Assembly (NCBI RefSeq): GCF_024223415.1
Contig: NZ_CP100500.1
DNA: 64,000 nucleotides
Source of the DNA: Escherichia coli
GTDB lineage: Bacteria > Pseudomonadota > Gammaproteobacteria > Enterobacterales > Enterobacteriaceae
Reading direction: 5' to 3' (one strand)
Shown: positions 43,637-57,455 of the stretch, piece after piece
Numbering within the stretch: position 1 is the stretch's first letter
How the letters are laid out: each line of letters opens with the position of its first letter
Translations under genes and position numbers: made by a program
Notes under the pieces: model-generated
Seen by the model: only the letters and a program-made list of their open reading frames with translations
What the model was told of the DNA's origin: nothing
Databases searched by the model: none

Positions 43637-44203
43637 ATGCTTGAACTTAATGCTAAAACCACTGCGCTGGTGGTGATCGATTTACAAGAAGGCATCTTAC
43701 CTTTTGCCGGTGGTCCACATACTGCCGATGAGGTAGTTAATCGCGCCGGGAAGCTGGCGGCGAAATTTCGCGCCAGCGGTCAGCCCGTGTTTCTGGTGCG
43801 AGTTGGCTGGTCTGCCGATTACGCCGAAGCATTAAAACAGCCGGTTGATGCCCCCTCCCCCGCTAAAGTGTTGCCCGAAAACTGGTGGCAACATCCAGCT
43901 GTATTAGGTGCAACTGACAGTGATATCGAAATCATCAAACGTCAGTGGGGTGCGTTTTACGGTACGGATCTGGAGTTGCAATTACGCCGCCGAGGTATCG
44001 ATACAATAGTGTTATGTGGGATCTCGACCAATATCGGTGTTGAATCCACCGCCCGCAATGCCTGGGAACTTGGCTTTAATCTGGTGATTGCCGAAGACGC
44101 CTGTAGTGCCGCCAGCGCCGAGCAACACAATAACAGCATTAATCATATCTACCCGCGCATCGCCCGTGTGCGTAGCGTGGAAGAGATCCTTCACGCGTTA
44201 TGA
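43637..44203 (+). CDS. yecD: isochorismatase-family hydrolase YecD
   Basis: 188-aa product from [17 protein letters not shown]; the ORF track begins at an upstream GTG. Confidence 0.88.
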
Positions 44204-44310
44204 TTTACATCGGTCTACCGCAATGGTCGCATCCTAAATGGGTGCGGTTGGGGATCACCAGCCTTGAAGAGTATGCCCGCCACTTTAACTGCGTGATACG
44301 GGATTTTTAA
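44200..44310 (+). pseudogene. yecE: yecE 5' fragment, disrupted by prophage insertion
   Basis: Reads [32 protein letters not shown], then diverges from K-12 yecE and stops after 5 more codons; AT-rich phage-like DNA follows. Confidence 0.8.
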
Positions 44311-44411
44311 AAATCACTAAAGAACGCCCAAGAGCATGAGTTTTCTTTAGCATAATCAAAGCGTTGAATTTCCATGCCATATGAAAATCGGCAAAGTTCA
44401 TATGTAACAAA

Positions 44412-44471
44412 GTGTCCCAATCATGCCCCAAATTGCCCCACAACAGACATTTTTGCCCCATGCATGCCCCA
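44412..44471. repeat. phased direct repeats of TG(C/T)CCCA near the prophage-host junction
   Basis: Five copies (TGTCCCA, TGCCCCA x4) starting at 44413, 44424, 44434, 44454, 44465, spaced at ~10-bp multiples. Confidence 0.6.
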
Positions 44472-44492
44472 AAAAATCACTTTCCCTCACCC

Positions 44493-44542
44493 TTGACACT
44501 GTTTATCCATACAGTTAAAAATAATACTGTATACAAACACAG
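44493..44542 (+). promoter_or_regulatory. putative SOS-regulated promoter of phage dinI: -35 TTGACA with two LexA-box-like palindromes
   Basis: TTGACA at 44493-44498; CTGTTTATCCATACAG at 44499-44514; CTGTATACAAACACAG at 44527-44542; both fit CTGT-N8-ACAG. Confidence 0.6.
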
Positions 44543-44557
44543 TGTAGAGGGATTTTT

Positions 44558-44806
44558 ATGCGTATTGAAATCTGTATCGCTAAAGAAAAATTCAGCAAAA
44601 TGCCAAAAGGCTCTGTACCTGCTCTACAACAGGAAATGTCTCGCCGTATCAGAAAACAATACGACGATGTGGAGGTTATAGTAAAATCCGCCAGTAATGA
44701 CGGACTGACCATTTTAAGAGCCGTAGATAAAGAAAACGCTCAGAAGTTCATACAGGAAACGCTGCAGGAAGTCTGGGAAACTGCTGATGACTGGTTTTTT
44801 CACTAA
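44558..44806 (+). CDS. DinI-family DNA-damage-inducible protein (prophage-encoded)
   Basis: 82-aa [22 protein letters not shown]...[16 protein letters not shown], resembling DinI incl. C-terminal acidic WExADDWF motif; good SD (AGAGGG). Confidence 0.8.
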
Positions 44807-44873
44807 TCAGGACGTCAAATAAATAACAACTGTAATTATTCTCTCCAAATTAACAATCTCTGTATACATACTC

Positions 44874-45189: not shown

Positions 45190-45645
45190 TTATTCAACAC
45201 CTGAATCCCCCGCAGCTTCTCTCCCCTTTATAAAACGCCCCTTCCGGAATCCAGACCGCTGCAGTGCACGACGAAGATGACCGTATACCGTCTTGTCATT
45301 CTGCCCCGTCTCTTCTGTAATCTCCGCAATACTTAAACCTCTGTAATACCGGTTCAGTACCGCTCTGCGCTCTTCCAGCGTCAACACACCTCCGGCCGCT
45401 CTCAGATTCAGCATCGACTTATTCAGAATACAGCAGGCCTCTCCGGTAAAAAGAATACGAACAATATCTGTATACTCATCATCACAGAATACAAAATAAT
45501 ATCTGAATGACCTGCCTGACTGCACCCTTCTTCTGTCTGATATGGCATCTTCTATATATCTGATTCGACTGCTTACGGTTCCAAATATCTCTCGCAGGGC
45601 TTTTTCAAAATAAATATCTCTCGTCGCCAGGATTATATCCAGCAT
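45190..45645 (-). CDS. LuxR/GerE-type HTH transcriptional regulator (prophage accessory)
   Basis: 151-aa ORF; C-terminal LTLEERRAVLNRYYRGLSIAEITEETGQNDKTVYGHLRRALQR fits the GerE/LuxR HTH pattern; Arg codons almost all AGA/AGG/CGA and frequent ATA Ile. Confidence 0.6.
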   Translation of the reverse strand: MLDIILATRDIYFEKALREIFGTVSSRIRYIEDAISDRRRVQSGRSFRYYFVFCDDEYTDIVRILFTGEACCILNKSMLNLRAAGGVLTLEERRAVLNRYYRGLSIAEITEETGQNDKTVYGHLRRALQRSGFRKGRFIKGREAAGDSGVE

Positions 45646-45705: not shown

Positions 45706-46833
45706 TCAGAACTCAAAATTCACACCAGCATTCCACGATGCGGATGACCCACCTGCAGCAACTGCAACTTTTCCTGCCACATTCTCTGTGAAACGGTAGC
45801 CCACGCCCACCGCAATGGCCTGCTCATCACGGTAACCACCAACGGCTGCTGTCGCGTTAAATTTTCCAACACTGTATGGCTGGAAAAGACCGGCCAGTGC
45901 CGCGCTCTGGGCTGCACTCTCCCTTAACTCCTTCCGGTTCTCTTTAATCTGCTCCTGCATATTATTCATTCTCTCTGTCGCCATCTTCTGCCAGGCTTCC
46001 GTCAAATCCAGACGATGACTGTTATTCCTTATCGCTGCTGTATTTGAGGCTATTGCTGCATCCGTCTGCGCCCTGTTCTTCACAAGCACATCGCTGAGAT
46101 GTTCTGCCTGGCTTTTCACCTCGTTACGGACAGTACGCACACTGCTGTCTGTATATGTACGCGTCTCGTCCAGAACATCCGACTTCACCGCATCCGTGTA
46201 TTCCTGCGCAGAAGCCCTGGCAGCTGTAATATTACCGTTAAGTCTGTTTTCTGCCGATTCCACTCGACTCTTAGCATCAGCAACAGCATCACGGTAGACA
46301 GCTCCTATCTCACCGCGCAGGGCATCCCCCGACTCCCGTACAGCATCTGCAATGGCGTTGTCCATCTGTCCTTTTGTGGCCGCATCACTATCCTTAACAC
46401 CATCTGAAACATTTATAATCCGGCGGGTTTCCGGTGCACCATCAACTGAAAATCCATATCCTGAAGGACCGGCCCCTACAGAAAGTACATTGCTTTCTCC
46501 ATTCACCTGAGAGCCATACCCCAGAGCGACACTGTTGTCTGCATTAAAAACAGCTGTATTATTTCCCACAGCCATGGATTTATCCGCATCCCAAATTATT
46601 GCATCGGAACCAACAGCAAAGTTTTTTCCAGTAACACTACCATCACTGTTAAAATTTCCATTTCTGTCAACCACAGTTGCACTTTCAAGTGAATGAGTGC
46701 CATTATCAATCCAGATAATACCCGTCGATGACTCAGTAAGTGTTTTATGAGCCAAAGCCTGAGATGAGAGCAGCAGGGCCACACTCACTGCCAGCGCGCT
46801 TTTCTTTAAAAAAGCATCACGTCTTTTAAGCAT
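45706..46833 (-). CDS. trimeric autotransporter adhesin, Eib-like (E. coli immunoglobulin-binding protein family) candidate
   Basis: 375-aa product from MLKRRDAFLKKSALAVSVALLLSSQALA (signal peptide; SD AGGAG 9 nt upstream); coiled-coil stalk; C-terminal YadA-like anchor ...WNAGVNFEF; Eib genes are known prophage cargo; the ORF track extends 18 codons upstream. Confidence 0.7.
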   Translation of the reverse strand: MLKRRDAFLKKSALAVSVALLLSSQALAHKTLTESSTGIIWIDNGTHSLESATVVDRNGNFNSDGSVTGKNFAVGSDAIIWDADKSMAVGNNTAVFNADNSVALGYGSQVNGESNVLSVGAGPSGYGFSVDGAPETRRIINVSDGVKDSDAATKGQMDNAIADAVRESGDALRGEIGAVYRDAVADAKSRVESAENRLNGNITAARASAQEYTDAVKSDVLDETRTYTDSSVRTVRNEVKSQAEHLSDVLVKNRAQTDAAIASNTAAIRNNSHRLDLTEAWQKMATERMNNMQEQIKENRKELRESAAQSAALAGLFQPYSVGKFNATAAVGGYRDEQAIAVGVGYRFTENVAGKVAVAAGGSSASWNAGVNFEF

Positions 46834-47181
46834 TCTGTTATTCTCCTGTATTATTACTTCACCAGCCAGAACGGTAGTGCGGAGCAAAAATACAGTGATA
46901 AGAATCCTCTTTTATTAATTTAATAATATCAGGAATATTATTGTGTATAATATGCGCCCTCAATTTAAGCAGCAGAAAAGCAATGACGCGAAAATCATTA
47001 AAATACATAAAGATAAAACATCATAACTATAATTATAATAAGCGCGCTTATTTTAGCATCTGAACATTTAAAGTACTGCTATCACAAAACAATAAAAATC
47101 CTGGGTAATATCTCTGATGATTGAATGAGAAATTCACGATGTCTGGTGAGAATTCTGTTCAAAACGAGGAATGCAGACGTA

Positions 47182-47454: not shown

Positions 47455-47488
47455 CCCCCTCTGACAGAATTTTCAGAGGGGTTTTTTT
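47455..47488 (+). terminator. strong plus-strand intrinsic terminator
   Basis: CCCCCTCTGA-cagaattt-TCAGAGGGGG followed by T7; plus-strand only. Confidence 0.65.
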
Positions 47489-47496
47489 TATCAGTT

Positions 47497-48072
47497 TCAC
47501 CATCCAACCCTGTACGCCAGAATGGTTTCACTGTCACTCAGTTCTGCTATTGCCTTTTTCATCTCCCTTTGCCTTATATGTATTTCAAGGCCTTTCCTGA
47601 ACATCGCTTTACCAGCAGCATCACTCAGGGATATCAGTTCATCTGCCGTCATCGGTACATCATTATTCTCTGCGTCCGTCCAGAAAAATCCTTCCGGCAA
47701 CACTCCGCCTCTGGCCGCTGATGCCGACATTCCAAGACGTGTCATGGCTTCCTTTCCATAATCCCATTTCCGTCCTCTGTGCTCAAAAACATACCCTGAC
47801 GCCTCCATCGCATCACGCCAGGCATTTATCTCCGCGTTTTTCATCCTGCGTGCTTCTTCCACAGCCATATCATCATTTGCCCGGTACTCACCTACCGGCC
47901 CTGCATCACCTCTTATGCAGGCTTCAAATATTTCACGACCGTAAGACTCAGGATCATCCGCACTTGCTGTAAATACACATTCTGTTTCCGCGTCTGAAAA
48001 CTTCACTATACAGTTTATGGTCGTATGACCCCTGTCAGCCCACACTGGTGACGTGATTTTATCGACCTTCAT
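47497..48072 (-). CDS. hypothetical phage protein at the tail-fibre-assembly (tfa) position
   Basis: 191-aa ORF immediately downstream of the stf-like gene with SD GGGGAGAAA; does not resemble lambda Tfa as far as I can recall; assignment is positional. Confidence 0.4.
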   Translation of the reverse strand: MKVDKITSPVWADRGHTTINCIVKFSDAETECVFTASADDPESYGREIFEACIRGDAGPVGEYRANDDMAVEEARRMKNAEINAWRDAMEASGYVFEHRGRKWDYGKEAMTRLGMSASAARGGVLPEGFFWTDAENNDVPMTADELISLSDAAGKAMFRKGLEIHIRQREMKKAIAELSDSETILAYRVGW

Positions 48073-48086
48073 TCATTTCTCCCCTG

Positions 48087-49892
48087 TCACCGTATTCTCT
48101 GAAACAGGCCCCAAATCGTCCCAATGATATTATTCACTGTCATGTTAGTTGTGCATAACATCCATGTACCAAGCATAGGATTGCCAAATAAAAAGCGGAT
48201 ATCTGTAAGTTTATCCGATGACGACGACACAATAACGGCCTGTCTGATACGATACCCGGGTATTTCACGGGTATTTGTTACCTCATGATTTCGTTCTATG
48301 ATCCCCAGAACATAAGACCCCACGGAATAAACACTTCCGACGCTCGCTGGCTGCCCCGGCTGTCCCTGTGGTCCTGCCGGGCCGCGTTCACCTGTATACC
48401 CTCTTGGCCCCTGAGGACCTGCCGGGCCGCGTTCACCTGTATCCCCCTTTAGTCCCTGTGGACCTGCCGGACCGCGTTCACCTGTATCGCCCTTTGGTCC
48501 CTGTGGACCACGCTCCCCCTGGGCTCCCAGCTCTTTCCATTCAGACCAGGGGCCATTACCGGTAAAATTACCAGTAACAGTTCTTACGAACTTTCGTGGT
48601 GGGTTCCAGGTTGTATATTCATGCTGGCAATATCCCCATGCACCAACTCTTACCTGAAGATAACCCGCTCTCTGAATCGGATAATTATTTTCTCGTGTAG
48701 CCCCACTGTCTGATGGCTGATAATAATCACCCTGATCGGTCACTCGTCCCAGTCGGTTCAGATCACCATTCAGCAGTTGTCCACGGGCTGACTCTCCTCT
48801 TGGTCCCTGAGGACCTGCCGGACCGCGTGCTCCTGTTTCACCTTTTGCTCCCTGTGGACCTGTCGGACCGCGTTCACCTGTTTCACCTTTTGGTCCCTGT
48901 GGTCCTGCCGGGCCGCGTTCACCTGTTTCACCCTTTGCTCCCTGTGGACCTTCCGGGCCACGTTCACCTGTATCCCCCTTTGGTCCCTGAGGACCTGCCG
49001 GGCCACGTTCACCTGTATCGCCCTTTGATCCCTGTGGACCTGCCGGGCCGCGTTCACCTGTATCCCCCTTTGGTCCCTGTGGACCTCCCGGATCTCCTTT
49101 ATCCCCCTTAGGGCCTTTTTCTCCTCGCTCACCCTTTTCTCCCTTCAGACCCTGAGGGCCTTCCGGACCACGTGCACCTGTTTCGCCCTTTGCTCCCTGT
49201 GGACCTGCCGGGCCGCGTTCACCTGTTTCGCCCTTTGCTCCCTGTGGACCTGCCGGGCCGCGTGCACCTGTTTCACCCTTTGGTCCCTGTGGACCTGCCG
49301 GGCCGCGTTCACCTGTATCGCCCTTTAGTCCCTGTGGACCTGCCGGACCGCGTTCACCTGTTTCACCTTTTGGTCCCTGTGGTCCTGCCGGGCCACGTGC
49401 TCCTGTTTCACCTTTTGGCCCCTGTGGCCCGGTAATGCCTCTTTCACCACGAGCGCCGGTATCCCCTTTCTCTCCTCGTGGTCCCCGGGCAGATGCTGCT
49501 CGTTTCCGGGCTTCCTCCGCCTCAGATGCCGCGGACTCTGCTCTGTGCAGTATGGACTGCACCACAGCCTCCAGCTCTGACAACGCCTTCGGATAATAAG
49601 GAGCATCTTCCAGCTCCATCAGAAATTTATTCAGTGTTCCCGGTGAAGAATCCTCCCTGACCACGATATCTCCCACATACGAAGGACGGTAACCTTCTGT
49701 ATTGAGTGTCACCCTGTATATTCCTGGCTCCACATCCATACTGTAACTCCCCGTCTCTTCCGGCATGCCATAAGCCACTGTCGTGGCGATGACTGTCTCG
49801 CTGGTTCTCTTCGCTTTCAGCTCAATAATGCATCCCGGTACCGGTTTTCCGGTTCCGTCCCTCAGCACGCCTGAAATTTTTACAGCCGCCAT
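48087..49892 (-). CDS. stf: side tail fibre protein (Stf-like) with collagen-like G-X-Y repeats
   Basis: 601-aa ORF; N-terminus [18 protein letters not shown]... resembles lambda Stf N-domain; two long blocks of GPxGxKGxTGxRG repeats; distinct C-terminal domain. Confidence 0.8.
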
Positions 49893-49964
49893 ACTCGCTC
49901 CATAAAAAATAATCCCGCAAAATTGCGGGCGTCGTCATTCATTTACAATCGGGTGTTTTTATGA

Positions 49965-50210
49965 TTACTTCACGCACGAAACTTTCGTAAACATATCTTC
50001 ACTCACCCACTGACCATAAAATCTCGGAGCTGATACTTTATACACAGTGCCGCTTTTCGTTTCTATTTTCCCTGTAAGATCTACCGTATAAGCTCGCTGT
50101 AAAACCCCGGGACTCAGCACACCGGTGCACCGGACTCTCTCCGTAACGGAACGGTACCCCGCGCAACCTGATACAAGAAACAGCAAAAAAGTGCAGACGA
50201 TTATTTTCAT
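49965..50210 (-). CDS. small lipoprotein, Cor-like candidate
   Basis: 81-aa ORF with signal peptide and lipobox LVSGC; sits at the lom/cor position; no homology recalled. Confidence 0.5.
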   Translation of the reverse strand: MKIIVCTFLLFLVSGCAGYRSVTERVRCTGVLSPGVLQRAYTVDLTGKIETKSGTVYKVSAPRFYGQWVSEDMFTKVSCVK

Positions 50211-50231
50211 TACATGCCCTCAACATAACTA

Positions 50232-50894
50232 TCAGTACGCATCATAAATTTCTGCATTTATGTAATAACAGAGGTTATTAACAACACCTGAATTATCATT
50301 GGGCGCCGCTACGTTATCTTCAGCAAAAGTTGACTGACGCCATAACTGTGAGTTTCTGGCATTAAAACTGGCGGTATACCAGTAATAACTCTCCCCTTCC
50401 TGAACTGTCGTCCACTGGGTACACCCCGGCATTACGGCCACATCATGTCCCACACTGATCGGTACATCCTTTTCCCATATTCGCGTCATTTTTACTTCCA
50501 GTGGCAGCATTTCCGTGTTCCAGACCACCCTGCCATGACTGTCGCACAACTGTATTCCCCATTGCGGCCATACATTCACCATGTTGGCAAAAACATAAAC
50601 AACATATGTGCTGTCCTGTTCCATGCCCGGCTCCTGCCCTGTACCAGCGCTGAAAATGTCATACTGCCAGGTACCGTTAAGCTGAACCATTTCACCATGG
50701 AAGGACTGATTACCGCTTATCTGTTTAATAAAAATCACGCAACGATAATTCGTCGGCACCCCAGTGTCGATAAACTGCATCACCGCATCACGCGCACTCA
50801 GTGTGAAATGAAAACGGCGCACAAGGTTCAGTGGCGGCGCAACAGGTGATATCCATTCTCTCCCCCGCTCATCAGTTAATTTAAGTGCAAACAT
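50232..50894 (-). CDS. hypothetical tail-associated protein
   Basis: 220-aa ORF; start ATG overlaps stop of upstream 86-aa ORF (ATGA). Confidence 0.55.
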   Translation of the reverse strand: MFALKLTDERGREWISPVAPPLNLVRRFHFTLSARDAVMQFIDTGVPTNYRCVIFIKQISGNQSFHGEMVQLNGTWQYDIFSAGTGQEPGMEQDSTYVVYVFANMVNVWPQWGIQLCDSHGRVVWNTEMLPLEVKMTRIWEKDVPISVGHDVAVMPGCTQWTTVQEGESYYWYTASFNARNSQLWRQSTFAEDNVAAPNDNSGVVNNLCYYINAEIYDAY

Positions 50895-51154
50895 CAGATC
50901 CCCCTTATCATGACCAGCACGGGTCTTAACCAGCTTGTGTTGGCATAGTGCACTGTCCAGCCGGATACACTGGCACTGGTATGACTTCCCTGACCGTTAA
51001 TCAGAATGGCCGGTGAACAGACTTCCAGACGCCAGCCCTGCAAAGGAGTATAAGAACGCTGCCCCGTCCCTTCAGTGATCACATCCAGCACCCCTGTTGG
51101 GTTTATTTCATGTGTCACAAGGCGCCCTTTGCGCCATACCCGGACTCCGAACAT
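50894..51154 (-). CDS. hypothetical small protein coupled to J
   Basis: 86-aa ORF; start overlaps J stop (TAATG). Confidence 0.5.
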   Translation of the reverse strand: MFGVRVWRKGRLVTHEINPTGVLDVITEGTGQRSYTPLQGWRLEVCSPAILINGQGSHTSASVSGWTVHYANTSWLRPVLVMIRGI

Positions 51155-54100
51155 TACAGTCTCCCCAGTCGTACTCTTAACACATTGTTATCGTCATATA
51201 CGTCGATTCGCTCGCCATTGAAAAACAGGCGGCCTGCGCCGGGCCTTCCTGAGTTAATTTCAAGGCTGCCGTTTCTTGATAAACGCCACCCCGGACTACC
51301 GGAATGAAAATTATCTGACCGGATATCTCCCGTCACTCTGGCAAAATCCACGGTCAGTTTTTTCATGAAAACATCATTCATGAACAGCTGATCACCCTGA
51401 GCCACAAACAAAGGTGTTGTATTGCCATTTTCCGGGTTAATCATCGCAATACGATCTGCCTGCATCAGGATCTGACTCTGAATTCCGTCAGACGTATTTT
51501 CGATTCCGGCACCAATACCTGCAATATAGAGACGTCCATCCCGTGTCTGCTGCAGCTTCACAGCCCACATGCTGTTCAGGTTCCGGCGCGTGTCCTCCTG
51601 AACTTTCTGTATCTGCTCAATGCTGGCATTCCAGGATCCCAGTTTTTTATCCGTGCTCTGTGTGATCTGACTTCCCTTATCATCAACATACTGTCTGATC
51701 TGCGCTATCTGTCGGCTGTTCTCCTCCGTGCTCCTGCTTACTGTCTGCCGGATTTCGCTTCCCATCCTGTCAACTTTTCTGTCAACTTCCGCAATGGCCA
51801 TTGACTGTTCAGCGCTCTTTTTCGCCACAACAGTACTTATTTGCGCACTTTTATCATCAACATACTGCCTGACCTGCGCTATCTGTCGGCTGTTCTCCTC
51901 CGTGCTCCTGCTCACTGTCTGCCGGATTTCACTGCTCACGCTGTCAACTTTCCTGTCGACTTTCGCAATGGCCAGCGACTGTTCACCGCTCTTTTTCGCC
52001 ACCAGTTCCGTTATGCTGTTTTCAGACGCCGTGATTTTTTTCGTCACCTCTGCGATATCACGCTCCGCACGCTGCCTCACATCTTTCTCCAGCTGCGTCA
52101 TTTCGCGGTTAATCGCATTCTCCAGTTGCTCAACTTCAGTGCGCCGTGCAGAGGCATCAATGCGTTCATTGATCTCCCGTCCCAGATGCGTTTTATTTAT
52201 CGCCCCCCTGAAAAAATTAAGGTAACCGGCAGGATCATTACTCGCCCGACCGACTGCCTCCACGAATGCCGATTTACCGACAGTGTTAACACTGCGGATA
52301 TAAAAGTAATAATCATGGCCAGGTTTAATATTCTGGCCGGAGACAAGCCACTGACTTCCGGTACCAAGATAACGGGCTGTGGTTTCAACCTGCCTGATAT
52401 CGGTAATCCGCGTTTCCGAGAACCAGAACTCAAACTGTACCGTCGGATCGTAAACCGCAAGATGCGGCGTGGCGGTTATCTGAAAATAGCCCGGCGTCAG
52501 CTCAATCCGCGACGGCGCTGCCGGTGCGGCAATCCGGAACGATACCGACGCCGGGTCTCCCTGCTGCCCCCGGGCATTTACTGCCCGGACTGTCAGCCTG
52601 TAGTTCCCCGGCGCCAGCTGCCTGAAGCGGTATGTGGTTTCCGTCGTCCGGGCCGTGCTGACCAGCCGCTCACTGCCATCATCCGCGGCCACGGTCAGGC
52701 GAAGCAGGAAGCTCACGCCCTTCACCACCTTCGGCGTGTCCCAGCGCGCCAGCACCTGATATTCCCCGCTGTCTGCGGTGACTTCTGCGGTCAGGTGCTG
52801 CACCGCTGGCGGCGTGACACCATTCACCGTTCCGCTCTGGTCGCCGTCAAAGTGCGCCCCGTTATCCACGATGGCCTCTTTTTCCGGTACATGCTGCACG
52901 GCAGTGATGGCATACGTGCCGTCGTCGTTCTCACGGATACTCACGCAGCGGAACAGGCGCTGGCGCAGCGTCGGCAGCTTCAGCCCCCACACGCTGTACT
53001 CGGCAACGCCGTCAGGAACCCGGCTCACTTTTACCTTCACGCCGTCGGTGACGGACTGAACCTCCACGCTGACCGGATTGCCACTTCCGTCAACCAGACT
53101 TATCAGCGTGGTACCGGAGGATGGCAGCGTGATTTCACGGTCGAGCGTCAGCGTCCGGGTCTGGCTGTTCACCGCCAGCACACGACCACCGGTGCTGATA
53201 CCGGCATAGTCATCATCACAGATTTCAATGACATCGCCCGGTACATGGCGAAGCCCTTCAGCACCCACGCTGAAATCCACGGTCTGCGTCTCCAGCAGTT
53301 CTGTTTTAATCAGCCACAGCCCGGCGCGGTGTGCCTGCCCCCGGCTGGTACAGCCAAAGGCATCCATCTTCGTGACGTTACGACCGTAACGGGCAATGGC
53401 CTGCGTGTCCTCCACAAGCTCTGTCGCCGTCTCCTGGCCGTTATCCGGGTCACTCCAGTTCACCTCAACGGCATTATGGCGGTCCTTCAGGGCGCTGAAG
53501 CTGTAGCGGAACGGCGCGCCATCATCCGGCATCACCACATTACTGCGGTTATAGGTCCACACCTTATCCGACGGTCGGTCCTGCACGAACGTCAGCGTCT
53601 GCCCGTTCCATACCGGCATACAGCGCATCGCCGAGCAGAAATCACTGAGCACATCCCACGCCTTACGCTGCCTGGTCAGCCAGGCATTACAGGTGATGCG
53701 CGGCTCCGTGCCACCAGAGCCGTCCGGCACCGACTGGTCGCAGTACTGGCCGATGACATACAGCGCCCATTTGTCCACATCCGCTGCGCCAACACGTTTC
53801 CCCATGCCGTAGCGCGGGTGGGTCAGCATATCCCACAGACACCAGGCCGGGTTATCGCTGTATGCCGGTTTAAACGTTCCGTCCCAGATACCGCTGTATT
53901 GCCGCGTCTGCGGGTTATAGTTCGACGGCACCTGCAGAATGCGCCCGCGAAGATGATAATTACGGCTCACCTGCTGGCTGCCGAACTGCTCCGAATCCAC
54001 CTGCACACCGACCAGTGCCGTGTTCGGGTAGCACTGTTTCACATCGATGATTTCGGTGTATGACGACCAGAGCGTTTTGTTCTGCAGCTGGTCTGTGGTG

Positions 54101-54663
54101 CTGTCCGGCGTCATCCTGCGCATCCGGATACTGAACGGGCGCGGCGGCAGGTTACCCACCACCACCGGGGCCAGATACTGCGAGGTGGTTTTGCCCTTAA
54201 TGGTGATGTCTTTTTCCGTTAACCAGCGACCGTTACGCTGTATCTGAACCAGCAGGCGGACTTCCGACGGATTCCGGTCCCCCTTTGAGGTGGTTTCCAC
54301 CAGTGCCTGCACACCGAAGGTCAGGCGCAGACGGTCGATGTTTGCCGACGTGATGGTCCGGGTAATCGGCGTGTCGTACTTCACTTCCGTACCCAGCACC
54401 GTCTCGGAGCCGGAGGATTCAAATCCCTCCGGCGGCGTCTGCTCCTGCTCACCGGCCCGGAATACCACCGTGACGCCGGATATATTGGTATTCCCCTCAC
54501 TGTCCAGCACCGGCGTACCGTTCAGCAGCACGCTTTTTAATCCATCCACCGGTCCTTGTATCGGCCCTTCGCTGATGACATCGATCACACTCAGCAACTG
54601 CGTGGACTTCAGGTTGTCCTTCGCTTCGCGCGGGGTATGCCCCTTACTGCTGCCTTTACCCAT
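51154..54663 (-). CDS. J: tail tip / host specificity protein J (central fibre), variant C-terminus
   Basis: 1169-aa ORF; N-terminal ~900 aa match lambda gpJ as I recall it ([24 protein letters not shown]...); C-terminal ~270 aa differ and include two 58-aa tandem repeats. Confidence 0.92.
51678..52025. repeat. 174-bp tandem duplication inside J
   Basis: Two adjacent ~174-bp copies (starting 51678 and 51852), ~90% identical, encoding [20 protein letters not shown]... Confidence 0.8.
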
Positions 54664-56427: not shown

Positions 56428-57126
56428 TTACTGCGAAAGTTTGTGAATGGAAAGAAAACCGCCAAAGTTGCCGACGTTATTGCGAAACTTACAGCCGCTC
56501 AGGCATTTGCTGCATTTATCCTTCGTGATATCGGACGTCGGCTGATCATATTCATCCGCGACCGCCGGACCGCTATAACCGCACTCATCGCCGCGATAGG
56601 TCCAGGTGCAGGTGTTGGCCAGCATGATACGTCCCGGAAAAACAGCGCCGTCCGTTTCCGTCGGCGTGGCCAGTACAAAGGTCGCGCTGACCGCTGTCAA
56701 ATCACTGCACTGCTCGATGCGCCAGCGGCTGATAACCTCCTGCTCCGGATCGGCGTCACTGTTTCCGTTGACGAAGTTCACCGCATCCAGAAAACGGGCA
56801 TAAACTTTACGCCGGACCACCGTTCCGCCGACCAGACTCTGCATATCTTCCACCATACCGGTGACCATACCGTACAGGTTAGAAACCGTCAGCGTGGGGC
56901 GCGTACTGGTGCCTTTGCCATTCAGTTCAAAACCACTCCCCTGAATGGGATACGGCTGATACTGTCGCCCCTGCCAGGTGACCGGCTCACCTTTTTCGTT
57001 CTGCTCATTACAGAAAAAATAACGTTCTCCACCGACCTCTGTCAGATCGATTTCCCAGAGCACCACGCTGGCCGACTGCTCCGCACGGGTGCATTCATTC
57101 AGTGTTTCCTGCCGGATATCCTGCAT
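56428..57126 (-). CDS. L: minor tail protein L
   Basis: 232-aa ORF MQDIRQETLNECTRAEQSASVVLWEIDL..., lambda gpL length and sequence as recalled. Confidence 0.92.
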   Translation of the reverse strand: MQDIRQETLNECTRAEQSASVVLWEIDLTEVGGERYFFCNEQNEKGEPVTWQGRQYQPYPIQGSGFELNGKGTSTRPTLTVSNLYGMVTGMVEDMQSLVGGTVVRRKVYARFLDAVNFVNGNSDADPEQEVISRWRIEQCSDLTAVSATFVLATPTETDGAVFPGRIMLANTCTWTYRGDECGYSGPAVADEYDQPTSDITKDKCSKCLSGCKFRNNVGNFGGFLSIHKLSQ

Positions 57127-57455
57127 CAGTTCACCACCTGTTCAAACTCTGCGCTGAACTCAACACGCAGCATACTGACCCGCGACGACCATTTTGCGCA
57201 GGTCACCTTTATCTGCCGCCACTCATAAGGCGGCGTCCACAGAAAGGATTTCCAGCCCCCGTGCTCTTCCAGAAACGACTCCAGTACCGTGGCCTCCTCA
57301 CGGGGGACAGAAAGCGTCACGCTGTACGTTTTCAGGTTGGCATTCAGCCCGGCAGGCGCTCGCTGGGAATAGCCATCACCAAAGCGCACCTTTCTTACAG
57401 AAGGGACCGAAGCCACATCCATACCGGGTTTCACTTTCCAGCGGAAGGTTTTCAT
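57126..57455 (-). CDS. M: minor tail protein M
   Basis: 109-aa ORF, lambda gpM length; overlaps L start. Confidence 0.9.
   Translation of the reverse strand: MKTFRWKVKPGMDVASVPSVRKVRFGDGYSQRAPAGLNANLKTYSVTLSVPREEATVLESFLEEHGGWKSFLWTPPYEWRQIKVTCAKWSSRVSMLRVEFSAEFEQVVN

What the first reader, a model, noticed from the sequence alone, without database searches (positions are those of the whole stretch)
48087..49892. Side tail fibre with lambda-like N-terminus and two long collagen-like repeat blocks
The N-terminal ~120 aa resemble lambda Stf, but the shaft is made of dozens of near-identical G-P-x-G-x-K-G-x-T-G-x-R units encoded by highly similar repeated DNA. Such repeats are prone to slipped-strand or recombinational length variation and create spurious Pro-rich ORFs in other frames (present in the ORF track). 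Shaft length variation could alter host range.
Basis: seen in the sequence. Interest (0 to 1): 0.35.

Follow-up and report, generated by a model that had tools for sequence, protein, structure and literature searches.

The report
Collagen-like side tail fibre gene
This is the side tail fibre gene of a lambda-like prophage of E. coli, whose shaft is a bacterial collagen triple helix encoded by 45-base repeats. The repeat number differs between strains, and the protein belongs to a class already described in 2012.

Summary
Window 48087-49892 (- strand) is an intact 601-aa ORF. Its first 128 aa are 50% identical to lambda Stf. It has 97 perfect Gly-X-Y triplets in two blocks, separated by an 87-aa globular domain.

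Three details need correcting:
- The repeat unit is 15 aa (45 nt), not 12 aa.
- There are about 18 units, not dozens.
- Units are 80-88% identical at the DNA level.

The protein matches the EPclC-type "E. coli prophage collagen-like proteins" of Ghosh et al. 2012. The tail it sits on is almost pure lambda: gpM 100%, gpV 95%, and the first 836 aa of gpJ 93% identical. The downstream gene is a DUF4376 tail-fibre chaperone, not lambda Tfa.

Fifteen related alleles from complete E. coli genomes have non-collagen parts at least 97.7% identical in DNA. Their first collagen block is 156, 186, 231, 246 or 276 aa, always in steps of 15 aa. Four alleles lack the globular insert altogether. Three prophages at the same yecD-side site carry fibres of 601, 556 and 457 aa.

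No effect on host range was tested. This is an ordinary new member of a known kind.

The parts
49611..49892 (-). Fibre aa 1-94: the N-terminal collar (PfN) domain, which docks the fibre on the tail
   Evidence: PF08400 at aa 3-133, E 2.7e-39. PDB 9e7m Ur-lambda Stf residues 1-94 match aa 3-92, E 1.2e-28. 50% identity to lambda orf-401.
49485..49610 (-). Fibre aa 95-136: a short Ala/Glu-rich helical neck between the collar and the collagen. The 116-aa PCoil of EPclA/B is absent.
   Evidence: Still inside the PF08400 match and aligned to lambda Stf residues 94-129. In Ur-lambda this stretch is the linker and the start of the trimeric bundle (PMC12617516). That it is helical here is an inference.
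48789..49484 (-). Collagen block 1, aa 137-368: 44 Gly-X-Y triplets, one extra Gly, then 33 triplets
   Evidence: PF01391. Tandem array 48800-49427, period 45 nt, 14.3 copies. Register printed. Triplet statistics.
49086..49088 (-). Codon of the single extra Gly (aa 269 in GDPGGPQG), the only break in the Gly-X-Y register
   Evidence: Read directly from the sequence. [quoted passage not shown]
48528..48788 (-). Globular insert, aa 369-455: a knob-like domain between the two collagen blocks
   Evidence: 72% identical to a domain of E. coli tail fibres that NCBI names 'pyocin knob domain-containing protein'. AlphaFold2 block-mean pLDDT is 57-74 over most of it. The top Foldseek PDB hits include R2 and R1 pyocin fibres, but only at E about 0.1. 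The DNA is 100% identical in 20 genomes. Four alleles lack the domain.
48348..48527 (-). Collagen block 2, aa 456-515: 20 Gly-X-Y triplets
   Evidence: PF01391 best stretch at aa 456-514. Tandem array 48362-48509.
48087..48347 (-). C-terminal tip domain, aa 516-601, plus the stop codon. Presumed trimerisation nucleus and receptor-binding end.
   Evidence: No match in Pfam, NCBIfam or PDB. Only one true 50%-identity representative among 1.84 billion proteins. A diverged homologue ends the fibre of phage PhiR12_3. The function is inferred by analogy with PfC of EPclA (PMC3368898).
47497..48072 (-). DUF4376 protein, 191 aa, starting 15 nt after the fibre stop. Probable tail-fibre chaperone or cap.
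   Evidence: PF14301, E 1.5e-20. phrog_1141. Not homologous to lambda Tfa. 59% identical to the gene that follows the PhiR12_3 fibre. DUF4376 proteins are experimentally characterised fibre chaperones in Alteromonas phages V22 and A5 (PMC7289586, PMC10579305).
49914..49929 (-). Terminator-like hairpin (CCCGCAATTTTGCGGG followed by a T run), 21 nt upstream of the fibre ATG
   Evidence: Consensus scan and the sequence itself. Function not shown.
51154..54663 (-). Central tail fibre J, 1169 aa
   Evidence: Pfam J domains. Aa 1-836 are 93% identical to lambda J, and the C-terminal part diverges.
57126..57455 (-). gpM, one of the two proteins the Stf collar contacts in Ur-lambda
   Evidence: 100% identical to lambda gpM. 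Docking site from PMC12617516.
60860..61630 (-). Major tail protein gpV, the other contact of the Stf collar
   Evidence: 94.8% identical to lambda gpV over 231 aa.
48713..49111 (+). Largest antisense ORF created by the repeat (132 aa, Pro/Leu/Val-rich). Others lie at 48368-48565 (+), 49172-49435 (+), 48770-49132 (-) and 49325-49606 (-).
   Evidence: No evidence of coding. They repeat with the same 45-nt period.

Best explanation
**What it is.** The gene encodes the side tail fibre of a lambda-like siphophage prophage inserted beside yecD in an E. coli chromosome.

**How it most likely works.**
- Three chains form one fibre.
- Each N-terminal collar domain (aa 1-94) docks at the gpV/gpM junction of the tail tip, as in Ur-lambda, where 12 collar domains carry four trimeric fibres.
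- After a short helical neck, the shaft is a collagen triple helix of 97 Gly-X-Y triplets, about 84 nm at 0.288 nm per residue. It would be stabilised without hydroxyproline by Pro in the X position (44 of 97 triplets) and by 23 K/R-G-E/D charge pairs.
- The shaft has one register break (an extra Gly) and one knob-like globular insert.
- The 86-aa C-terminal domain is the probable folding nucleus and host-binding tip. The DUF4376 protein encoded next to it would assist or cap that tip.

**How the length varies.** The shaft is encoded by 45-nt units that share exact matches of up to 51 nt. Unequal homologous recombination or replication slippage therefore adds and removes whole 15-aa units, about 4.3 nm each, always in frame. 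Exchange between the two blocks can remove or add the knob.

**Shown and inferred.**
- Shown: the domain homologies, the conservation of the docking partners, and the unit-wise length polymorphism among strains.
- Inferred: trimer and triple-helix formation, the roles of the tip and the chaperone, the mutational mechanism, and any phenotypic effect of length.
For: **Domains:**

**Lambda-like tail:** gpM 100%, gpV 95%, gpJ aa 1-836 93% identical.

**Docking geometry:** from the Ur-lambda cryo-EM study PMC12617516.

**Collagen statistics:** 97 perfect triplets. X position: Pro 44, Glu 26. Y position: Arg 22, Lys 20, Gln 19, Thr 18. There are 23 K/R-G-E/D motifs. This matches the composition reported for this class, whose member EPclA was shown to be a trimer with a triple helix melting at 42 C and a C-terminal trimerisation domain (PMC3368898).

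**Chaperone:** PF14301, published DUF4376 chaperones, and a tip plus DUF4376 pair conserved in phage PhiR12_3.

**Length polymorphism**:
- Block 1 is 156, 186, 231, 246 or 276 aa, and every difference is a multiple of 15 aa.
- Block 2 is 33, 45, 60 or 63 aa.
- Knob-less alleles carry 220, 235 or 355 aa of collagen.
- The flanking parts of the gene are 97.7-100% identical in DNA.

**Same integration site:** the window has 601 aa, ECCNB12-2 has 556 aa and TUM1886 has 457 aa.

**Where near-identical alleles differ:** 30 of the 35 codon positions that differ between the window and strain B771 lie in the collagen region.
Against: - No experiment or read data were available. Expression, assembly into virions and receptor binding are all unproven for this protein.
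- The collar is only 50% identical to lambda Stf although gpM is 100% identical, so docking is inferred rather than shown.
- The tip model is of low confidence (pLDDT below 40), and the tip has no detectable distant relatives.
- Some relatives sit in decayed prophages with IS66 insertions or a frameshifted J. The gene could therefore persist without being used.
- Closely related assemblies (NRZ14408, LT599825 and OY754371, by matching alignment coordinates) all give the same 1806-nt gene span. Change is therefore not rapid within a clone.
Confidence: 0.85

Rival explanations
1. The length differences between strains are assembly artefacts from collapsed or expanded repeats, not real alleles.
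For: The repeats do defeat short-read assembly. Most database homologues are partial proteins on contigs of 0.5-1.6 kb. A 282-aa 'complete' form (P0015) could be a collapse.
Against: - The alleles compared come from complete-level genomes.
- All of them are in frame, keep a perfect Gly-X-Y register and differ by whole 45-nt units.
- Related assemblies give the same gene span.
- TUM1886 carries the same 457-aa allele three times.
- The arrays are under 0.8 kb, which is easily spanned by long reads.
Confidence: 0.05
2. The protein is a bacterial surface collagen-like adhesin or virulence factor carried as a prophage passenger gene, like streptococcal Scl or Legionella Lcl, and is not a virion part.
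For: NCBIfam gives partial matches to Lcl, SclA and SclB (E about 1e-56 to 1e-60). All are far below their curated cut-offs and are confined to the collagen part. The locus is followed by a YadA-like adhesin gene.
Against: - The N-terminus is the Stf collar domain rather than an export signal.
- No anchor domain was matched.
- The gene occupies the stf slot after J and is followed by a fibre-chaperone family gene.
- The NCBIfam scores of 192-205 bits compare with cut-offs of 325-500 bits.
Confidence: 0.04
3. The array is a contingency locus that changes at high frequency within a clone by slipped-strand mispairing, giving mixed fibre lengths in one lysate.
For: The array is a tandem repeat with exact matches of up to 51 nt, including a 44-nt exact repeat at a 45-nt offset. 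The unit order differs even between alleles of equal length.
Against: - The unit length is a multiple of three, so no on/off switching is possible.
- Units are only about 83% identical on average.
- Related assemblies and the three intragenomic copies in TUM1886 are identical in length.
- No read data could be examined.
Confidence: 0.1
4. The gene is an inert remnant of a decaying prophage. Its repeat variation is neutral decay with no function.
For: Seven of the related loci fetched carry IS66-family insertions next to or inside the gene. In those loci J is frameshifted, truncated or replaced. The window shows only the tail half of the prophage.
Against: - In the window every tail gene examined is intact: J 1169 aa, H 853 aa, gpM 100% identical to lambda.
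- Among the full-length alleles none has a frameshift or a broken Gly-X-Y register. This is not expected under neutral decay of a 0.9-kb repeat.
Confidence: 0.12

Closest known systems
EPclC-type E. coli prophage collagen-like proteins (Ghosh et al. 2012, PLoS One, PMC3368898). Listed examples: ECOR-9 ORF-401 of prophage P-EibA, and ECED1_1681 and ECED1_2081 of strain ED1a.
   Same: - PfN (PF08400) N-terminus.
[quoted passage not shown]
- No long PCoil.
- A C-terminal region unrelated to PfC (PF06820).
- Pro-rich X position and a charged, Thr- and Gln-rich Y position.
- A prophage tail-fibre slot, here next to a YadA-family adhesin gene as in the Eib prophages.
- Collagen domains of variable length.
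   Different: - The collagen is longer: 232 + 60 aa, against 106-118 + 75-117 aa for the listed EPclC examples.
- The piece between the two blocks is a knob-like domain. No Pf2 (PF03406) repeat was matched.
- I could not retrieve the type sequences, so identity of the C-terminal domain with the published EPclC ends is not checked.
- The unit-wise 45-nt polymorphism and the alleles with and without the knob are not described in that paper.
EPclA and EPclB of E. coli O157:H7 Sakai and EDL933 (for example ECs2717, Z1483); VT1-Sakai H0004
   Same: PfN collar and a collagen shaft. They are about 60% identical over roughly half the protein. EPclA was shown biochemically to be a trimer with a true triple helix.
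   Different: They have a 109-116 aa Ala/Ser coiled coil (PCoil) and a PfC (PF06820) C-terminus. Neither is present here.
Bacteriophage lambda (Ur-lambda) side tail fibre Stf with Tfa
   Same: - Homologous collar domain (50% identity; PDB 9e7m).
- Same gene position after J.
- Docking partners gpM and gpV are 100% and 95% identical.
- A chaperone gene lies directly downstream.
   Different: - The lambda shaft is an alpha-helical coiled coil with a gp37-like distal part that binds OmpC. Here the shaft is collagen and the tip is an unrelated 86-aa domain.
- The downstream gene is DUF4376, not Tfa.
Collagen-like repeats in other viral attachment proteins: the S. thermophilus phage antireceptor, and Guarani/Sputnik virophage ORF8
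   Same: Short collagen-coding DNA repeats that undergo in-frame deletions. They have been proposed as recombination hotspots. An 81-nt deletion in the 27-nt repeats of the Guarani virophage accompanied a host-range expansion (PMC7242381; PMC5601072).
   Different: These are unrelated proteins and hosts with much shorter arrays. No phenotype is linked to length in the present family.
DUF4376 tail-fibre chaperones of Alteromonas phages V22 (gp27) and A5 (gp9)
   Same: A C-terminal DUF4376 domain (PF14301, E 1.5e-20), about 190 aa in size, encoded immediately after the fibre gene.
   Different: The sequences are distant, the fibres they serve are not collagenous, and no activity data exist for the E. 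coli protein.

Membership tests
E. coli prophage collagen-like proteins (EPclP), EPclC architecture | N-terminal PfN domain (PF08400) | tested here: met
   aa 3-133, E 2.7e-39, 134.7 bits against a cut-off of 26.6
E. coli prophage collagen-like proteins (EPclP), EPclC architecture | One or two collagen (Gly-X-Y)n domains (PF01391) | tested here: met
   162.9 bits against a cut-off of 27.2. 44 + 33 + 20 uninterrupted triplets.
E. coli prophage collagen-like proteins (EPclP), EPclC architecture | [quoted passage not shown] | tested here: met
   GDPGGPQG at aa 266-273, present in every full-length allele. The feature is described in PMC3368898.
E. coli prophage collagen-like proteins (EPclP), EPclC architecture | C-terminal region without homology to PfC (PF06820), and the long PCoil often missing | tested here: met
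   No PF06820 match at E <= 0.01. Only about 40 residues lie between the collar core and the first Gly-X-Y (sequence).
E. coli prophage collagen-like proteins (EPclP), EPclC architecture | C-terminal domain homologous to that of the published EPclC examples (ECOR-9 ORF-401, ECED1_1681, ECED1_2081) | not tested
   Those sequences were not in the collections I could read, and the figure defining the domain is not held.
E. coli prophage collagen-like proteins (EPclP), EPclC architecture | Forms a trimer with a collagen triple helix | not testable with these tools
   Shown biochemically only for EPclA (PMC3368898).
Lambda-type side tail fibre (Stf) | Collar domain homologous to gpStf residues 1-94 | tested here: met
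   PDB 9e7m, E 1.2e-28. 50% identity over 128 aa.
Lambda-type side tail fibre (Stf) | Encoded after J in a tail with the gpV/gpM docking junction | tested here: met
   Gene order. gpM 100% and gpV 95% identical to lambda.
Lambda-type side tail fibre (Stf) | Coiled-coil shaft, gp37-like distal part and a Tfa chaperone | tested here: not met
   No similarity to lambda Stf beyond aa 130. The downstream protein is not related to lambda Tfa (E 0.043).
DUF4376 tail-fibre chaperones (downstream gene 47497-48072) | PF14301 domain in a protein of about 190 aa encoded directly after the fibre gene | tested here: met
   E 1.5e-20, 74.1 bits against a cut-off of 25. A 15-nt gap. Paired with a homologous fibre tip in PhiR12_3.
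DUF4376 tail-fibre chaperones (downstream gene 47497-48072) | Needed for, or bound to, the folded fibre tip | not testable with these tools
   Experimental in Alteromonas phages only.
Pyocin-knob domain (insert aa 369-455) | Knob fold of R-type pyocin and phage fibre shafts | tested here: inconclusive
   72% identity to a domain that NCBI names pyocin knob. No sequence hit in PDB, Pfam or NCBIfam. The model has block-mean pLDDT of 57-74. Foldseek hits to R2 and R1 pyocin fibres are only E 0.09-0.11.
Phase-variable contingency locus (slipped-strand on/off switch) | Repeat-unit changes shift the reading frame or promoter spacing | tested here: not met
   The unit is 45 nt. Every full-length allele is in frame.

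The most novel reading that the evidence does not exclude
The collagen shaft could be an evolvable ruler rather than a passive rod. Whole-unit gains and losses (about 4.3 nm each, giving 63-102 nm among the alleles seen) and the presence or absence of the knob would be selected to match the reach of the side fibres to the thickness of the host's O-antigen or capsule layer. They would thereby change adsorption rate or host range. The changes might be driven by the phage's own relaxed-homology recombinase acting on repeats of 25-51 nt.
Probability: 0.15. Interest if true: 0.5.

Novelty: new member of a known kind. Interest (0 to 1): 0.2.

Why it matters
Side fibres speed up and broaden adsorption of lambda-like phages, and these phages move virulence genes among E. 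coli. A shaft built from recombining 45-nt units is a simple route to fibres of different reach.

The alleles with and without the knob show that collagen blocks can also act as in-frame joints for swapping domains. That is useful to anyone engineering lambda-based delivery particles with chimeric Stf fibres.

There are also practical points for annotation:
- The repeat breaks short-read assemblies, so most database copies are fragments.
- It creates false ORFs on both strands.
- It led to at least one intact allele being annotated as a pseudogene.

None of this changes current understanding, because the protein class and its variable collagen length were described in 2012.

Tried and rejected
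- **Sequenced phages:** megablast of the locus against 50,697 phage genomes found nothing. At DNA level the gene is known only from prophages.
- **Knob and tip by sequence:** PDB searches found nothing even at E <= 10, and NCBIfam gave nothing.
- **Deeper alignment for the tip:** an exhaustive search of 1.84 billion representatives with the tip found one true relative and a fragment. No deep alignment could be built.
- **Structure of aa 369-601:** the AlphaFold2 model had mean pLDDT 43.5. The knob was moderate and the tip unusable. The Foldseek search therefore gives only weak support for a pyocin-knob fold.
- **Knob junction:** I tried to map the junction of the knob-less alleles. They stay colinear with knob-bearing alleles from the 3' end into collagen block 2. 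The repeats are too alike to place the crossover or to say whether the knob was lost or gained.
- **Phase-variable switch:** considered and rejected, because all changes are in frame.
- **Secreted collagen adhesin:** considered and rejected, because the NCBIfam matches are collagen-only and below cut-off.
- **Lambda Tfa homology of the downstream gene:** considered and rejected.
- **Exact allele:** the 601-aa allele is not in the 15-billion-protein collection.
Full report
**1. The observation**

The window has an intact ORF at exactly 48087-49892 on the - strand, encoding 601 aa. Pfam finds the prophage tail fibre N-terminal domain PF08400 at aa 3-133 (E 2.7e-39) and six collagen triple-helix stretches, PF01391 (E 1.5e-48). 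The best PHROG families are all tail fibre proteins.

Tandem Repeats Finder reports two arrays with a 45-nt period:

| Array | Copies | Matches |
|---|---|---|
| 48800-49427 | 14.3 | 80% |
| 48362-48509 | 3.3 | 88% |

The longest exact direct repeat in the gene is 51 nt, and 53 maximal repeats reach 18 nt or more. Codon-shuffled versions of the gene never exceeded 17 nt. The repeat is therefore real and far beyond chance.

Read in register, the protein has these parts:

| Residues | Part |
|---|---|
| 1-94 | Collar domain |
| 95-136 | Short helical neck |
| 137-368 | Collagen block 1: 44 Gly-X-Y triplets, one extra Gly in GDPGGPQG, then 33 triplets |
| 369-455 | Globular insert |
| 456-515 | Collagen block 2: 20 triplets |
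| 516-601 | C-terminal domain |

- The unit is 15 aa (GPAGPQGxKG-E/D-TG-E/A-R), not 12 aa.
- There are about 18-19 unit equivalents, not dozens.
- Units average 83% DNA identity.

They are simply the repeat read out of frame.

**2. What it is**

The first 128 residues are 50% identical to lambda orf-401/Stf (E 9e-36). They also match the solved collar domain of the Ur-lambda side fibre, PDB 9e7m (E 1.2e-28).

The surrounding tail is almost lambda itself:
- gpM is 100% identical.
- gpV is 95% identical.
- The first 836 residues of J are 93% identical.

In Ur-lambda, twelve Stf collar domains wrap the gpV/gpM junction and carry four trimeric fibres (PMC12617516). The same docking is the natural inference here.

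The gene order on the - strand is J, three small passenger ORFs in the place of lom, the fibre gene, a 191-aa DUF4376 gene 15 nt downstream, a YadA-like adhesin gene, a sigma-like regulator gene and a DinI-like gene. The chromosomal genes yecD and aspS follow.

The architecture has been described. Ghosh et al. 2012 (PMC3368898) defined the E. coli prophage collagen-like proteins EPclA to EPclD. The present protein fits their EPclC type on these points:
- A PfN N-terminus.
- Two collagen domains.
- No long PCoil.
- A C-terminus unrelated to PfC.

One of their type examples is ORF-401 of the Eib prophage of ECOR-9. That fits the adhesin gene downstream of the fibre here.

The amino-acid preferences also match their table. 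The X position holds Pro 44 and Glu 26 of 97. The Y position holds Arg 22, Lys 20, Gln 19 and Thr 18. The commonest triplets are [12 protein letters not shown] and GET.

For EPclA they showed trimer formation, a true triple helix melting at 42 C, and a C-terminal domain that nucleates refolding. I could not fetch their EPclC type sequences. Identity of the C-terminal domains is therefore unchecked.

**3. The non-collagen pieces**

The insert at aa 369-455 is 72% identical to a domain of other E. coli tail fibres that NCBI names pyocin knob domain-containing proteins. In those fibres it sits among Phage_fiber_2 repeats. It also occurs twice in a Yersinia entomophaga fibre.

An AlphaFold2 model gave this domain block-mean pLDDT of 57-74. 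The top Foldseek PDB hits included R2 and R1 pyocin fibres, but only at E about 0.1. I treat the knob assignment as probable but not proven.

The C-terminal 86 residues have no Pfam, NCBIfam or PDB match. They have only one genuine 50%-identity representative among 1.84 billion proteins. A diverged copy ends the 662-aa collagen-containing fibre of phage PhiR12_3 from ECOR13. There it is again followed by a DUF4376 gene (59% identical) and an adhesin gene.

DUF4376 proteins are the experimentally identified tail-fibre chaperones, or transient caps, of Alteromonas phages V22 and A5 (PMC7289586, PMC10579305). The gene here is not related to lambda Tfa. The tip and the DUF4376 protein therefore look like a matched pair of fibre end and chaperone. 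This is an inference.

**4. Length variation**

The family is rare. The non-repeat parts occur in only 20-23 of 5,426 complete E. coli genomes, with up to four copies per genome. DNA identity across those genomes is:

| Part | DNA identity |
|---|---|
| N-terminus | 99.0-99.8% |
| Knob | 100% |
| Tip | 97.7-99.6% |

Against that background the collagen arrays differ freely. In 15 alleles read in full:
- Block 1 is 156, 186, 231, 246 or 276 aa, and every difference is a multiple of 15 aa.
- Block 2 is 33, 45, 60 or 63 aa.
- Four alleles have no knob and a single fused collagen region of 220, 235 or 355 aa, still in perfect register.
- Full-length proteins are 442, 457, 529, 556, 577, 586, 601, 604 and 616 aa.

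At about 0.288 nm per residue, the collagen parts span roughly 63 to 102 nm, and one unit is about 4.3 nm.

A unit-by-unit map shows local expansions, for example three identical units in strain Ch1. It also shows a different unit order between alleles of equal length. Of the 35 codon positions that differ between the window and strain B771, 30 lie in collagen.

The cleanest comparison is three prophages at the same yecD-side site with the same flanking genes:

| Genome | Fibre length |
|---|---|
| Window | 601 aa |
| ECCNB12-2 | 556 aa |
| TUM1886 | 457 aa, no knob |

**5. Limits on the interpretation**

- All changes are in frame, so this is not an on/off switch.
- Related assemblies give the same gene span. 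TUM1886 has three identical copies in three prophages. Change is therefore slow on the scale of a clone, and copies in one genome can be homogenised.
- Slippage and unequal recombination cannot be distinguished from these data. Exact matches of 34-41 nt between block 1 and block 2 are plausible substrates for loss of the knob. The crossover could not be placed, nor its direction decided.
- No link between length and host range is shown. The nearest precedent is an 81-nt deletion in the collagen-like repeats of the Guarani virophage that accompanied a host-range expansion. The same paper cites a proposal that such repeats are recombination hotspots in S. thermophilus phages (PMC7242381; PMC5601072).
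- Assembly error is a real risk for this gene in short-read data. Most database homologues are fragments on tiny contigs. It is unlikely for the complete genomes used here.

**6. Verdict**

The finding is correct and its interpretation is largely right. It is a member of a protein class described in 2012, including the variable collagen length. This particular subfamily, with a knob between the collagen blocks, a narrowly distributed tip and a DUF4376 partner, is uncommon. The exact allele is absent from a 15-billion-protein collection. That makes it a new member of a known kind, not a new kind. Interest is low to modest. The only reading that would raise it, that unit number and knob content tune fibre reach and host range, is untested.

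Noticed in passing
window 51677-52002 (inside J, 51154-54663, - strand): J contains a 174-nt tandem duplication (1.9 copies, 90% matches), which gives a repeat of about 58 aa. It lies in the C-terminal part, where J stops resembling lambda J. Aa 1-836 are 93% identical and the rest diverges.
   Followed up: partly
window 45706-46887 (-), 45190-45645 (-): A YadA-like trimeric autotransporter adhesin gene (anchor, stalk and head Pfam matches; anchor matches PDB 2lme at E 1.4e-17) and a sigma-factor-like HTH gene sit between the fibre module and the prophage end. A truncated adhesin gene at this position in one relative is annotated as an immunoglobulin-binding protein. No match to solved Eib structures was seen.
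   Followed up: partly
window 49965-51154 (-): The lom position between J and the fibre gene holds three small ORFs instead: 86 aa, 220 aa (phrog_425, membrane-associated passenger gene) and an 81-aa Cor-like lipoprotein (phrog_1119, superinfection exclusion). Other relatives of the fibre gene have Ail/Lom there.
   Followed up: no
loci L002, L006, L007, L009, L010, L014, L015: IS66-family elements (ISCro1, ISEc8) are inserted right next to, or inside, the fibre and DUF4376 module in seven of the related loci fetched. Two of them truncate the fibre gene. This could be a preferred target or just decay.
   Followed up: no
L008, L013, L019 (E. coli TUM1886): One genome carries three prophages, each with the identical 457-aa knob-less fibre allele (same protein accession) and the same DUF4376 protein. 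This suggests triplication or gene conversion between resident prophages.
   Followed up: partly
L007 3188-4921 (E. coli AR_0085): RefSeq marks this fibre gene as an incomplete pseudogene. The sequence is nevertheless an intact 577-aa ORF with 355 aa of uninterrupted collagen and no knob. This is probably an annotation artefact caused by the long repeat.
   Followed up: yes
window 49914-49929 (-) and 47456-47481: Terminator-like hairpins bracket the fibre and DUF4376 pair. One lies 21 nt upstream of the fibre ATG, after the Cor-like gene. A strong 9-bp stem with a T run lies just beyond the DUF4376 stop.
   Followed up: no
window about 44200-44810; tandem repeat at 44727-44772: The prophage ends beside yecD, at the yecE side, which is a known lambdoid insertion region. 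Many E. coli genomes share the flank up to about 44807, including a DinI-like gene. A different prophage therefore often occupies the same site.
   Followed up: partly
database homologues P0001-P0016: Nearly all database copies of this fibre are partial proteins on contigs of 0.5-1.6 kb. The collagen repeat evidently breaks short-read assemblies.
   Followed up: partly
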